Positions 14,551 through 16,748 of a stretch of DNA of 64,000 nucleotides are shown piece by piece. Position 1 is the first letter of the stretch. Each line of letters opens with the position of its first letter. The translations under genes were made by a program, and so were the position numbers. This stretch comes from a virus (taxonomy: Duplodnaviria; Caudoviricetes). The notes below the pieces were generated by a model. It worked only from the letters and a program-made list of their open reading frames with translations, did no database searches and was not told where the DNA came from. The stretch is from positions 8,742 to 72,741 of IMG/VR virus record IMGVR_UViG_3300033121_000370. One strand, 5' to 3'.

Positions 14551-14805
14551 ATGGCTATCGACTATGTAACCAAGAACGAAGTTGTTACCCGTACCGTAAC
14601 TGAGACTGTAAAGAAGAACATTGGTGTGATTTACACCTCGGATTCTTCTGACCGTGCTATCCGTGTTACCCCGAGCTCATCCTTTCCGGGGCGCTTCACG
14701 GTTACCATCAGCAACCCGAACTCTAGCAATGAACTGGCCATCACGCTGAAGCCGCATGACCTTGCGGACTTCCTTGATGCCGCTGCTACTCTTGTTAATG
14801 TCTAA
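14551..14805 (+). CDS. Hypothetical protein
   Basis: RBS aaggag, 84 aa. Confidence 0.65.
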   Translation: MAIDYVTKNEVVTRTVTETVKKNIGVIYTSDSSDRAIRVTPSSSFPGRFTVTISNPNSSNELAITLKPHDLADFLDAAATLVNV

Positions 14806-14936
14806 AGCGAGAATAGCTAACCCTAGCCTAGCTCTATTTTCTTCTTCTACTAGACATGAGTCCCGCTGGGCAGTCAACAGTAGAACTTAGAGGTAGAAGC
14901 TAGGTGGTTCCCTAGGGGTAGCGAAGCCGTCTTTAG

Positions 14937-14993: not shown

Positions 14994-15022
14994 TTGCCCT
15001 AGAAGGTAGCTTAGGCTATACT
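14994..15022 (+). promoter_or_regulatory. Sigma70-like promoter for the Y RNA/Ro60 unit
   Basis: TTGCCC-17 nt-TATACT. Confidence 0.65.
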
Positions 15023-15040
15023 CAGGAAAGAGAGAGAGAT

Positions 15041-15187
15041 TGTACTTGGTAGTGTTAGTAAGCAGTTACTTCTCATTGGCGAGAGAGACACGGGTTCGAT
15101 TCCCGTAGCCCTGCCTTATCTATTATGTAGGGCTTCGTCTAGTGGTAGGACACTTAAATATCTGCTTGCGACTGTTCTCCAGGTACA
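15041..15187 (+). ncRNA. yrlA: YrlA-type Y RNA with a permuted tRNA-like module
   Basis: T-arm cggg-TTCGATT-cccg precedes a closed acceptor-like hairpin (agccctgc/gtagggct) and then a D-arm (gtct-agtggt-aggac). Terminal stems gtacttgg/ccaggtac and gtaagcag/ctgcttgc. Lies ~200 nt upstream of Ro60. Confidence 0.85.
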
Positions 15188-15192
15188 GCCTA

Positions 15193-15264
15193 TTTACCTA
15201 GTGTTGAGTGCTTCGGTTACTTCTTTCGGTGAAAATACACCGAGGCTATTGTTACCTGGGTAAA
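15193..15264 (+). ncRNA. Second, short Y-RNA-like hairpin
   Basis: Outer stem tttacctag/ctgggtaaa, internal loop, inner stem cttcggt/accgagg. Shares GTTACTTCT with the YrlA. Confidence 0.55.
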
Positions 15265-15270
15265 CCCCGT

Positions 15271-15342
15271 AGCTGTGGGTAGTGAATAAGTTGGTTTCAT
15301 CTTGTAAATGACTCGCCAGCTTAGCTGAGTACTCCCACAGCT
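15271..15342 (+). ncRNA. Third Y-RNA-like hairpin with an anticodon-loop-like apex
   Basis: Outer stem agctgtggg/cccacagct, loop tagtgaat, inner stem aagttgg/ccagctt, apical tcat-CTTGTAA-atga. Confidence 0.5.
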
Positions 15343-15383
15343 TTTCTTCTTGTAACCTCAATCTAACGGAGTGTCGAATAAAC

Positions 15384-16748
15384 ATGGCTAGTATCAATCA
15401 GGCTCGGGCTGTAGCGGCTCGCACAGAAGTAACCCACGGAGGAACTCCTGTCCGCCCGTACTCTAACGAGCAGCAGCTTACACGAGCAGTGCTTAGCTGT
15501 ATGCTTTGGGAAGACCAGTTCTACGAAGATGGCGTAGACATCGCTAAGCGTATCAGCCAGCTGGTACCTTTGTGTGGGCCTTCATTTGTAGCAGGGCTAG
15601 CTATAAAGGCTCGGAAAGAATGGGGTCTTCGCCACGTTCCTCTTCTTCTCACCGTAGAGATGCTCAAGCATCCCCTCCACAAGGCCTACGTAAGTGAGGC
15701 AATTACTAGTGGAGCTATCCACCGGGCAGATGATATGTCCGAACTCTTGGCTCTTTATTGGAAAGATGGAAAGAAGCCGCTTGCCAAGCAGCTAAAGAAG
15801 GGACTTGCTACAGTTTTCACCAGGTTCAACAGCTATGCACTTGCCAAGTATAAGGGTTTTGACAAGGCTGTATCCCTACGTGACGTTCTGTTTATGGTAC
15901 ACCCTAAGCCAAAGAACGCTGAGCAAGCTAAGACTTTCAAGGAGTTAGCCGATAAGACAATTGCTTCCCCGGATACTTGGGAAGTTGCCTTGTCAGGTGG
16001 GGCTAATAAGAAGGAAACATTTACCCGGCTTATCCAAGAGAGTAAGCTAGGCGGCCTCGCCCTGCTACGTAACATCCGTAACATGGAACAGGCAGGTGTG
16101 GATAAAGCTATCATAACCTTGGCTTTGGATAACATGGACTGCTCCCTCATTGAGCCCTTCCGGTTTATCGCCTGTAACAAGTATGCTAGCCCGGCACTAG
16201 AGCCAGCTATTGAGCGAGCCTTTCTCCGGGCCAGTAAGGCTTACCAAAGCCAAGCACTAGCTGCTAAATCTGTAGCAGTTCTTGTAGACCACTCGGGCTC
16301 TATGTTCCACACCAAGGTGTCGGCTAAGTCTGAGCTAGAGCGCTTCGATGCTGCTGTAGCCTTGGCAGCTATTGTTCGGGAAGCTTTTGATAACACTAGA
16401 GTTTTTAGCTTCGAGAATAAAGTAACTGAGGTTAAGCCACGTCACGGCTTCAGTCTTATAGATGAGGTCAGGCGCTGCCCGAGCGGTGGAACTAAGCTGT
16501 TCGATGCCCTGCACCTAGTAAAGGACACGGTTAATCCAGATATTATAATCTGCATCACTGATGAACAAGACACAGGTGGTACTCACCACAGTATGCCTGA
16601 CCTTAGCAAAGGTCAGCGAGGCTTTATCATTAATGTAGGCAGCTACAAGAATGGCATTAGCCACGGCCAGTGGACTAACATCACAGGGTTCTCGGATGCT
16701 GTGGTTAGGTACATTGTGGCTGACTTAAAAGGGTGTGAGGCTCTATAA
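15384..16748 (+). CDS. rsr: Ro60/Rsr TROVE-domain RNA-binding protein with vWA domain
   Basis: THGG, QQLTRAVLSCMLWEDQFYEDG, LRHVPLLL, RADDMSELLALYW, KQLKKGLA, YALAKY, LRDVLFMVHPKP, TWEVALS and ALLRNIRNM. vWA MIDAS motif VLVDHSGSM, and ITDEQ. Confidence 0.95.
   Translation: MASINQARAVAARTEVTHGGTPVRPYSNEQQLTRAVLSCMLWEDQFYEDGVDIAKRISQLVPLCGPSFVAGLAIKARKEWGLRHVPLLLTVEMLKHPLHKAYVSEAITSGAIHRADDMSELLALYWKDGKKPLAKQLKKGLATVFTRFNSYALAKYKGFDKAVSLRDVLFMVHPKPKNAEQAKTFKELADKTIASPDTWEVALSGGANKKETFTRLIQESKLGGLALLRNIRNMEQAGVDKAIITLALDNMDCSLIEPFRFIACNKYASPALEPAIERAFLRASKAYQSQALAAKSVAVLVDHSGSMFHTKVSAKSELERFDAAVALAAIVREAFDNTRVFSFENKVTEVKPRHGFSLIDEVRRCPSGGTKLFDALHLVKDTVNPDIIICITDEQDTGGTHHSMPDLSKGQRGFIINVGSYKNGISHGQWTNITGFSDAVVRYIVADLKGCEAL

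What the first reader, a model, noticed from the sequence alone, without database searches (positions are those of the whole stretch)
15041..15342. Three tandem Y-RNA-like hairpins with shared architecture directly upstream of phage Ro60
Behind one sigma70 promoter (14994-15022) lie three consecutive elements. Each has an 8-9-bp outer stem, a U/G-rich internal loop (tagtgtta, tgttgagtg, tagtgaat), a 7-8-bp inner stem, and a different apical module. Module 1 is a full permuted tRNA-like domain (YrlA). Module 2 is a minimal tttc-ggt-gaaa hairpin. Module 3 is a 4-bp stem with a 7-nt CUUGUAA loop that resembles an anticodon loop (U33-like base, UGU). Units 1 and 2 share GTTACTTCT. Inference: a modular family of Ro60-binding RNAs with swappable effector loops; the two short ones would likely be missed by a YrlA model.
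Basis: partly seen in the sequence, partly recalled or inferred. Interest (0 to 1): 0.8.

Follow-up and report, generated by a model that had tools for sequence, protein, structure and literature searches.

The report
Three Y RNA genes beside phage Ro60
Just upstream of its Ro60 gene, an uncultured phage carries three back-to-back small RNA genes, one a tRNA look-alike and two short hairpins, that share one conserved "handle"; this handle recurs only next to Ro60 genes in many phages and bacteria, so this is a divergent but recognisable Y RNA cluster of a known type.

Summary
Three independent stem-loop domains lie at 15040-15188, 15193-15264 and 15271-15342, directly upstream of a TROVE/Ro60 gene (15384-16748).

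I built a covariance model only from RNAs that flank Ro60 genes of other phages. Searched over the whole 64-kb window, both strands, it finds exactly these three units (40.9, 37.7 and 21 bits) and nothing else.

The shared handle runs: outer stem, bulged U, a covarying 2-bp helix (AG:CU, GU:AC, GG:CC or GC:GC), YGWW, an 8-9-bp inner stem, UUACUUC, then on the 3' side ..GUU and the return strands. This corresponds to the published YrlA features (GNCGAA and YUAY), here as sequence variants.

Unit 1 carries the permuted V/T/acceptor/D tRNA-like core of YrlA. Units 2 and 3 are short, YrlB-like forms, and each has a look-alike in another phage.

Handle RNAs occur in 2-7 tandem copies per locus, always on the Ro60 strand. 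Across 13.7 Mb of five genomes they occur nowhere else.

Ro60 binding, processing and expression are untested. The promoter is only a weak consensus match.

The scan has noted similar handle-sharing RNA arrays beside Ro60-like genes on other DNA. Verdict: a new variant of a known kind, of moderate interest.

The parts
14994..15022 (+). Promoter-like site, TTGCCC-17 nt-TATACT. It would start transcription about 10 nt before unit 1.
   Evidence: Consensus scan, 9 of 12 matches. Weak: shuffles of the region give 2.0 +/- 1.2 such sites. Not tested further.
15040..15188 (+). Unit 1: long Y RNA of YrlA type. Sub-parts:
- 5' handle 15040-15072: outer stem 15040-15049, bulged U 15050, AG 15051-15052, UGUUA, inner stem 15058-15065, UUACUUC 15066-15072.
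- V hairpin 15070-15085.
- T arm 15090-15106.
- Closed acceptor-like stem 15107-15134.
- D arm 15137-15151.
- 3' handle 15162-15188.
   Evidence: Fold z -4.0. R1 model built from other phages: 40.9 bits, E 1e-7. Rfam YrlA 18.5 bits with T, acceptor and D arms aligned. Layout matches the YrlA features in PMC4201824.
15193..15264 (+). Unit 2: short Y RNA (YrlB-like) with a handle of the GU:AC subtype. Outer stem 15193-15201 with 15256-15264, bulged U 15202, GU 15203-15204 with AC 15254-15255, inner stem 15210-15217 with 15239-15246. Apical module UUACUUCUUUCGGUGAAAAUAC.
   Evidence: Fold z -3.3. R1 37.7 bits, E 6e-7. The apical module is 18 of 21 identical to L002:1013-1083, while the stems differ with compensation. 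The same GU:AC subtype occurs in L016 and L034.
15271..15342 (+). Unit 3: short Y RNA, the most divergent of the three. Outer stem 15271-15279 with 15334-15342, bulged U 15280, AG 15281-15282 with CU 15332-15333, inner stem 15287-15295 with 15315-15323. The motif variant UUUCAUC forms a 4-bp apical hairpin (15297-15311) with the 7-nt loop CUUGUAA.
   Evidence: Fold z -4.2. R1 21 bits, E 0.008 over the whole window. Same minimal design as L021:2286-2355, with the motif change compensated in the partner strand.
15343..15352 (+). U-rich tract UUUUCUUCUU directly after the G+C-rich basal stem of unit 3. It may be a leaky terminator or a 3'-end signal.
   Evidence: Read from the sequence. The terminator scan did not report it. 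Inference only.
15384..16748 (+). Ro60 (TROVE + vWA) gene, 454 aa, the presumed protein partner.
   Evidence: Pfam TROVE 9.5e-11, with vWA_Ro60 and VWA_2 below their cut-offs. PDB 9KOP and 9L5Y (phiLo Ro60), E 1.6e-21 over residues 29-444.

Best explanation
The stretch is a cluster of three Y RNA genes that serve the phage's own Ro60.

Each RNA has the same basal 'handle'. The 5' and 3' ends pair into an outer stem. Then come a bulged U, a 2-bp helix whose identity covaries, a small asymmetric loop (5' YGWW, 3' ..GUU), an 8-9-bp inner stem, and a single-stranded (U/A)UAC(U/A)UC. This handle is the docking site for the Ro60 ring. It is the counterpart of the GNCGAA and YUAY elements of bacterial YrlA and of the bulged helix of animal Y RNAs.

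The apical part is the variable, effector-facing module. In unit 1 it is a circularly permuted tRNA-like core (V, T, acceptor-like and D arms). In units 2 and 3 it is a small pyrimidine-rich hairpin.

The three RNAs are probably transcribed together with Ro60 from an upstream promoter and trimmed to the protected stems, as described for Mycobacterium smegmatis YrlA and YrlB. The resulting particles would tether Ro60 to different partners, such as a host exoribonuclease like PNPase or tRNA-handling enzymes. In this phage they would act alongside its RtcB ligase and a second RNA ligase in handling damaged RNA during infection.

Shown: the conserved sequence and structure of the handle, its exclusive linkage to Ro60, and the YrlA layout of unit 1.
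Inferred: Ro60 binding, co-transcription and processing, the partners, and the biological role.
For: (1) Model R1 was built only from non-window RNAs next to Ro60 genes of other phages. In the whole window, both strands, at E<=10 it finds exactly three hits, and these are the three units.

(2) In 31 phage loci R1 gives 81 further hits at E<=0.01 (84 rows with the window and two repeat rows), all on the Ro60 strand, several per locus. In 41 bacterial loci (Acidobacteriota, Bradyrhizobium, Hyphomonadaceae and others) it gives 111 hits, all on the Ro60 strand and upstream of Ro60.

(3) Genome-wide specificity. I searched a 7.9-Mb and a 5.4-Mb bacterial genome plus phages CcrColossus, crAss001 and Tenjo. 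Every hit at E<=0.01 lies beside Ro60 and none lies elsewhere.

(4) Covariation. 93% of cells are paired, and all 16 pairs show changes on both sides. The covariation score is 0.966, against 0.225 in shuffles and 0.09-0.18 when the partners are slid. The 2-bp helix switches GC to AU at pair 1 and GC to CG or UA at pair 2.

(5) Position relative to Ro60 is free: upstream here and in most loci, downstream in crAss-like phages and in L002. This argues for trans-acting RNAs rather than a 5' leader.

(6) Agreement with published YrlA features: a motif near the 5' end, YUAY before the V loop, and V, T, AS and D stem-loops. Rfam YrlA hits lie inside R1 hits in Bradyrhizobium (184735-184830 and 184918-184977) and in CcrColossus.

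(7) Units 2 and 3 each have a counterpart in another phage with a conserved apical part and compensated stems.

(8) The genomic context is RNA repair: RtcB at 1.6e-131, a cREC receiver domain, and an RNA ligase.

(9) Precedents: at least two Y RNAs per Ro60 locus, including short hairpins with small pyrimidine-rich loops; M. smegmatis YrlA and YrlB are processed from one precursor upstream of rsr; phage phiLo Ro60 binds two upstream Y-like RNAs.
Against: - There are no expression, processing or binding data for this phage or for any member of this handle family.
- The literal GNCGAA motif is absent. The units have AGUGUU, GUUGAG and AGUGAA instead.
- Rfam YrlA gives unit 1 only 18.5 bits and does not see units 2 and 3.
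- Unit 3 is a weak match (21 bits). It departs from the consensus in both UUACUUC and the 3' GUU.
- The experimentally validated phiLo Yrl RNAs are not found by R1, so no member of this handle family has been shown to bind Ro60.
- The loci searched were chosen because they contain Ro60. Only one search tests specificity outside them.
- The covariation alignment was fitted to the model.
- The promoter is a weak consensus match.
Confidence: 0.78

Rival explanations
1. Only unit 1 is a Y RNA. Units 2 and 3 are cis-acting hairpins of the Ro60 mRNA leader: attenuators, terminators, stabilisers, or sites where Ro60 regulates its own message.
For: They lie between a possible promoter and the Ro60 start codon. 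Unit 3 ends in a G+C-rich stem followed by UUUUCUUCUU. Unit 3 scores only 21 bits. No expression data exist.
Against: A model built from other phages finds both units. Homologous short units lie downstream of Ro60 in crAss-like phages and in L002, where they cannot be 5' leaders. Both units carry the same handle motifs as the tRNA-like unit. The apical module of unit 2 is conserved in L002, and unit 3 has a counterpart in L021. Autoregulatory binding by Ro60 would still need the same handle, so this reading overlaps with the main one.
Confidence: 0.08
2. The handle is recognised by something other than Ro60. It could be an RNA-processing or repair enzyme encoded nearby or by the host, or a folding and processing cassette that releases the inner RNAs. 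Ro60 would then only be a neighbour in the same RNA-repair gene set.
For: In some crAss-like phages the handle encloses a complete, non-permuted tRNA-Lys(UUU), which looks like a precursor cassette. M. smegmatis YrlA is cut by RNase P. No binding has been tested for this handle. phiLo's validated RNAs are not R1 matches.
Against: The only gene consistently found next to the handle across otherwise unrelated genomes (crAss-like phages, Xanthomonas and Caulobacter phages, Acidobacteriota, Bradyrhizobium) is Ro60. Hits are absent from the rest of 13.7 Mb. The handle corresponds to the region of YrlA and YrlB that the literature assigns to Ro60 binding.
Confidence: 0.1
3. The three hairpins are chance or repeat-derived structures, such as a local duplication or mobile repeat, with no RNA function.
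For: Units 1 and 2 share sequence (UAGUGUU, GUUACUUCU), as a recent duplication would.
Against: Fold z-scores are -3.3 to -4.2. Matches to the model are strand-specific. Covariation is heavy in both helices. Paralogous units have different, compensated stems. My motif-anchored descriptor gave 104 hits on the Ro60 strand against 1 on the opposite strand.
Confidence: 0.02

Closest known systems
YrlA (Y RNA-like A; Rfam RF02553; Chen et al. 2014, PMC4201824; structure in Wang et al. 2018, 10.1101/312249)
   Same: It is encoded next to Ro60 on the same strand. It has a conserved motif near the 5' end in the Ro60-binding module, then YUAY, then V, T, closed acceptor-like and D stem-loops in permuted tRNA order. 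Unit 1 has all of these. Rfam YrlA hits sit inside handle (R1) hits in Bradyrhizobium and CcrColossus.
   Different: The motif reads AGUGUU (with UAGUG) rather than GNCGAA. Here its first two bases pair with the 3' strand after a bulged U, whereas Chen et al. could recognise only the 5' strand. The Rfam score is 18.5 bits against a cut-off of 69. There is no 4-bp 'anticodon-like' stem between the handle and the tRNA-like core.
YrlB and Yrn2 (short Y RNAs of Salmonella, M. smegmatis and D. radiodurans; PMC4201824)
   Same: These are short hairpin RNAs co-encoded with the tRNA-like Y RNA and bound by Ro60, with small pyrimidine-rich loops. Salmonella YrlB shares the 5' motif with YrlA. M. smegmatis YrlA and YrlB lie upstream of rsr and come from one precursor. 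Units 2 and 3 fit this description.
   Different: YrlB homologues could be traced only within Salmonella enterica. Here the short units share a handle that is detectable across phyla and in phages. No sequence homology to the named YrlB RNAs was tested, because I held no sequences for them.
Thermus phage phiLo Ro60 with Yrl1 and Yrl2 (PMC12135203; PDB 9KOP, 9L5Y)
   Same: A phage Ro60 with two Y-like RNAs upstream that have a stem-bulge-stem build. It is the closest solved relative of the window's Ro60. Binding, and a ternary complex with host PNPase, were shown there.
   Different: The proteins are only about 26% identical. The phiLo RNAs were defined by CGAA motifs and are not matched by the handle model. 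No tRNA-like module is reported for them.
Animal Y RNAs with Ro60 (Xenopus Ro60-Y RNA structure, Stein et al. 2005, as cited in PMC4201824)
   Same: The 5' and 3' ends pair into a stem that holds a conserved bulged helix bound by Ro60. A variable loop binds other proteins. There are several paralogous Y RNAs per genome.
   Different: The conserved motif is GGUCCGA. They are individual Pol III genes and have no tRNA-like core. This comparison rests on what the papers say; I did not align the RNAs here.

Membership tests
YrlA (Rfam RF02553; Chen et al. 2014) | Encoded within a few kb of a Ro60 gene, on the same strand | tested here: met
   The units end 42-196 nt upstream of the TROVE gene at 15384-16748, on the same strand.
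YrlA (Rfam RF02553; Chen et al. 2014) | GNCGAAN0-1G motif near the 5' end | tested here: not met
   The literal motif is absent (no CGAA within 15041-15342). The equivalent position holds AGUGUU (U1), GUUGAG (U2) and AGUGAA (U3). Across Ro60 loci this position reads N1N2-YG-WW, and GGCGAA is one of its forms. I therefore treat the window's versions as variants, not as the defined motif.
YrlA (Rfam RF02553; Chen et al. 2014) | Conserved YUAY that begins the V loop | tested here: met
   UUAC is present in U1 (15066-15069) and in U2 (15217-15220). U3 has UUUC. The element is conserved as (U/A)UAC(U/A)UC in the handle family.
YrlA (Rfam RF02553; Chen et al. 2014) | tRNA-like core: T arm, closed acceptor-like stem and D arm in permuted order | tested here: met
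   Met by U1 only: T arm 15090-15106 (loop UUCGAUU), 8-bp closed stem 15107-15134, D arm 15137-15151 (loop AGUGGUA). The Rfam model aligns these three arms. U2 and U3 lack them.
YrlA (Rfam RF02553; Chen et al. 2014) | Score at or above Rfam's gathering cut-off (69 bits) | tested here: not met
   U1 scores 18.5 bits and there is no hit at the cut-off. The cut-off is not informative for this clade. CcrColossus, cited in the phiLo paper among phages with Y RNA-like RNAs and Ro60, reaches 42 bits. None of 121 alphaproteobacterial genomes or 20 Ro60 loci reaches 69 bits.
Ro60-handle RNA family defined here (model R1) | Significant match to a model built without the window's sequences | tested here: met
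   U1 40.9 bits (E 1e-7), U2 37.7 bits (6e-7) and U3 21 bits (0.008). These are the only hits in 64 kb on both strands.
Ro60-handle RNA family defined here (model R1) | Both helices and the 2-bp helix after the bulged U supported by covariation | tested here: met
   93% paired, 16 of 16 pairs with double changes, score 0.966 against 0.225 in shuffles. The window carries the AG:CU (U1, U3) and GU:AC (U2) forms.
Y RNA (functional class) | Bound by Ro60 in vivo or in vitro | not testable with these tools
   No binding or expression data exist. This is inferred from exclusive genomic linkage and from correspondence to the published Ro60-binding region.
YrlB-type short Y RNA | [quoted passage not shown] | tested here: met
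   U2 and U3 are 72 nt long and share the handle with U1. Their apical parts are UUACUUCUUUCGGU.. and UCAU-CUUGUAA-AUGA. Homology to the named YrlB RNAs was not tested.

The most novel reading that the evidence does not exclude
The short handle RNAs, including unit 3, may display anticodon-stem-loop mimics on a Ro60 platform.

In 21 of 103 distinct short units, from at least eight loci, the apical hairpin has a 7-nt loop of the form CU-NNN-AA. Composition-matched shuffles give 0.41 +/- 0.63.

The middle triplet varies between close phages (UUU, UCU, CCU, UCC, UUC, GUU, CUU, AAU; UGU in unit 3), while the stem covaries. In some crAss-like phages the same handle encloses a whole tRNA-Lys(UUU).

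If this is real, Ro60-Y RNA particles of phages would present tRNA anticodon arms as decoys, sensors or repair substrates for host anticodon nucleases. They would act together with the phage's RtcB and RNA ligase.
Probability: 0.15. Interest if true: 0.8.

Novelty: new variant of a known kind. Interest (0 to 1): 0.5.

Why it matters
Ro60-Y RNA particles are known from animals, a few bacteria and one phage, but short Y RNAs have been hard to find by homology. Chen et al. could trace YrlB only within Salmonella.

This locus and its relatives show that one conserved, covarying handle marks both tRNA-like and short Y RNAs next to Ro60, across phages and several bacterial phyla. A simple model built on that handle finds them where Rfam's YrlA model does not.

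The covarying 2-bp helix after a bulged U suggests that the bacterial and phage Ro60 site is a bulged helix, as in animals. That is directly testable with compensatory mutants.

Cultured phages that carry the same arrays in unannotated gaps (crAss001, Xanthomonas phage Tenjo, CcrColossus) offer ready systems for asking what phage Ro60 particles do during infection.

Tried and rejected
- Rfam at gathering thresholds gave only one ordinary tRNA elsewhere in the window.
- An exact 26-nt pattern from unit 1 found nothing in viral contigs, and the closest Ro60 is about 49% identical. So no close relative exists for direct covariation.
- My first loose stem-loop-stem descriptor was unspecific, with about 28 hits per 6 kb. 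It became useful only when anchored on motifs.
- A MAFFT alignment that included the window units mis-registered their 3' halves. I rebuilt it from trimmed non-window seeds.
- The handle model does not match phiLo, so I have no link to an experimentally validated RNA.
- The minus-strand ORF at 15194-15397 (67 aa, TTG start) has no Pfam match and overlaps the conserved RNAs. I rejected it as a gene.
- Two reviews (PMC10870794, PMC6542706) and the supplement of Chen et al. 2014 were not held. I could not check whether these particular phages or short forms are already listed.
- Other agents' notes point to a resemblance to Dictyostelium Class I RNAs. I could not test it, because the paper's text does not give the motif.
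- Papers holding both 'crAss' and Y RNA or Ro60 were not found among the top-ranked results. Two crAss papers mention the TROVE protein only as a possible ribonucleoprotein component.

Full report
**What is there**

The window is part of a 72.7-kb IMG/VR virus record. The ORF at 15384-16748 is a Ro60 protein. Pfam TROVE scores 9.5e-11, with weaker vWA matches. The closest solved structure is Ro60 of Thermus phage phiLo (E 1.6e-21).

The 340 nt in front of this gene hold no plus-strand ORF of 40 aa or more. They fold into three separate domains (z -3.8). Each folds alone with z -4.0, -3.3 and -4.2, and the three domains persist in a longer context.

All three have the same build: a 9-10-bp outer stem, a 7-8-nt 5' loop, an 8-9-bp inner stem and a 9-10-nt 3' loop. 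Spacers between units are only 4 and 6 nt.

**Rfam**

No family reaches its cut-off in the stretch. With relaxed thresholds, the YrlA model aligns the T arm, closed acceptor-like stem and D arm of unit 1 but scores only 18.5 bits. It does not see units 2 and 3.

**Relatives**

No close relative exists. An exact 26-mer search found nothing, and the best Ro60 homologues are 45-49% identical.

I therefore looked for the architecture rather than the sequence in 63 phage Ro60 loci.

- A descriptor anchored on UAGUG and on UYCU before the 3' stem strand gave 104 hits on the Ro60 strand and 1 on the other, none inside the Ro60 gene.
- In crAss-like phages, 2-4 such units lie directly downstream of Ro60. 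In L005, L014 and L043 they lie upstream.
- Looking instead for the shared heptamer (U/A)UAC(U/A)UC showed that almost every locus has several units, whose 5' loops read UGGCGUA, UGGUGAA, CGGCGAA, UGCCGUA or UGUUGAA.
- These pair with matching 3' ends..GUUCC..GUUGC..GUUAC and ..GUUCU.

The 'loop' is thus a bulged U followed by a 2-bp helix that covaries (AG:CU, GG:CC, GC:GC, GU:AC), and then a smaller asymmetric loop. Unit 2, which lacks UAGUG in the loop, is a regular member of the GU:AC subtype.

**Independent test**

I aligned 23 short units from other phages, with no window sequence. I built covariance model R1 from that alignment, using the structure read from it.

- Over the whole 64-kb window, both strands, at E<=10, R1 finds exactly three hits: 15044-15184 (40.9 bits), 15196-15261 (37.7 bits) and 15274-15339 (21 bits).
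- Over 31 phage loci it finds 81 further hits at E<=0.01, all on the Ro60 strand.
- Over 41 bacterial loci it finds 111 hits, all on the Ro60 strand and upstream of Ro60.
- In a 7.9-Mb Bradyrhizobium genome, a 5.4-Mb Acidobacterium genome and phages CcrColossus, crAss001 and Tenjo, every hit lies beside Ro60 and none elsewhere.
- On the model-fitted alignment, 93% of cells pair and all 16 pairs show double changes. The covariation score is 0.966, against 0.225 in shuffles and 0.09-0.18 for slid partners.

The alignment is fitted to the model, which favours the structure, but the margin is large.

**Relation to known Y RNAs**

Chen et al. 2014 define YrlA by four things: a GNCGAAN0-1G motif near the 5' end; a conserved YUAY that begins the V loop; V, T, acceptor-like and D stem-loops; and location near Ro60.

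The handle found here has the same order. N1N2-YG-WW takes the place of GNCGAA, and GGCGAA is one of its observed forms. UUAC or AUAC is the YUAY.

Unit 1 then has a V hairpin (15070-15085), a T arm (15090-15106), an 8-bp closed stem (15107-15134) and a D arm (15137-15151).

Rfam YrlA hits lie inside R1 hits in Bradyrhizobium and in CcrColossus.

Rfam's cut-off of 69 bits is not reached by CcrColossus (42 bits), by 20 bacterial Ro60 loci, or by any of 121 alphaproteobacterial genomes. Failure at that threshold therefore says little for this clade.

The same paper reports at least two Y RNAs per locus. [quoted passage not shown] In M. smegmatis, YrlA and YrlB come from one precursor upstream of rsr. 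Phage phiLo Ro60 binds two upstream Y-like RNAs and forms a complex with host PNPase.

The window's cluster is thus the known arrangement with variant motifs.

**The two short units**

The apical module of unit 2 is 18 of 21 identical to that of L002:1013-1083, while the inner stems differ with compensation.

Unit 3 has the same minimal design as L021:2286-2355: UU, a 4-bp stem, a 7-nt loop CU-NNN-AA, then four unpaired bases. Its departure from UUACUUC (it reads UUUCAUC) is compensated in the partner strand. This explains its lower score without making it a non-member.

Because homologous short units sit downstream of Ro60 in other phages, a purely cis-acting leader role is unlikely.

**Mechanism**

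I take the handle to be the Ro60 docking site and the apical parts to be partner-facing modules. The RNAs would be made with the Ro60 message and trimmed.

The phage also encodes RtcB (1.6e-131), a cREC receiver domain, an RNA ligase, a deaminase and a phosphoesterase. This fits the published link between Ro60, Y RNAs and RNA repair.

Binding, processing, partners and role are all inferences.

**A lead, not a finding**

Loops of the form CU-NNN-AA on short stems are strongly over-represented in the short units. Their middle triplet varies between close phages. In some crAss-like phages the handle encloses a whole tRNA-Lys(UUU). This suggests anticodon-arm mimicry, but I rate it at about 15%.

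**Earlier notes of the scan**

The same stretch was noted in another reading of this genome. Similar arrays of handle-sharing RNAs beside Ro60-like genes were reported on other phage DNA. I scored this case only on what I tested.

**Verdict**

It is a new variant of a known kind. Interest is moderate: the class is established, but three things go beyond what I could find in print. These are a handle model that finds short Y RNAs across phyla, the covarying bulged helix, and the unannotated arrays in cultured phages.

Noticed in passing
L149 3427-3596 and 3923-3978 (Bacteroides phage crAss001, MH675552.1, about 96603-96772): The 905-nt gap downstream of gp96 (the TROVE protein) has no annotated feature. 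It holds at least two strong handle RNAs (60 and 54 bits) and one weak one. The crAss papers I could read mention only the protein.
   Followed up: partly
L028 3823-3966, L035 2771-2921, L040 3828-3970: In these crAss-like phages the handle encloses a complete, non-permuted tRNA-Lys(UUU) (Rfam tRNA 59-63 bits; ARAGORN). Its 5' acceptor strand overlaps the conserved UACUUC of the handle. This looks like a Y RNA-tRNA chimera or a precursor cassette.
   Followed up: partly
Short units in L003, L008, L014, L019, L021, L030-L061, L037; window 15297-15311: The apical hairpins carry 7-nt loops of the form CU-NNN-AA (anticodon-loop-like). This holds for 21 of 103 distinct short units, against 0.41 expected from shuffles. 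The triplet varies between close phages, and the 5-bp stem shows compensatory changes.
   Followed up: partly
L148 1489-1928 (Xanthomonas phage Tenjo, LR743531.1, 38527-38966): Four tandem handle RNAs fill an unannotated 668-nt gap upstream of a 'hypothetical protein' that is the closest cultured-phage Ro60 (48% identical).
   Followed up: partly
L065-L142 (Acidobacteriota, Bradyrhizobium, Hyphomonadaceae and other contigs): Bacterial Ro60 genes of this clade are preceded by 2-7 tandem handle RNAs. Rfam's YrlA model at its cut-off finds none of them in the 20 loci tested.
   Followed up: partly
L002, L008, L013, L014: In several phages the Ro60 gene sits inside a long tRNA gene array, with up to about 20 tRNAs within 6 kb.
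   Followed up: no
L035 6-253; L042 49-495: A group I intron (86 bits) and a tmRNA gene (66 bits) lie about 1-2 kb upstream of Ro60 in two crAss-like contigs.
   Followed up: no
L033 4618-4759, L030 4016-4157, L042 4015-4158, L028 3975-4105, L029 4227-4354: tRNA matches of about 130-145 nt, which implies a long insertion, lie between the handle RNAs downstream of Ro60 in crAss-like phages.
   Followed up: no
window 14826-14905: My loose descriptor picked up another stem-loop-stem element between the upstream ORF (which ends at 14805) and the promoter-like site. The handle model does not match it.
   Followed up: no
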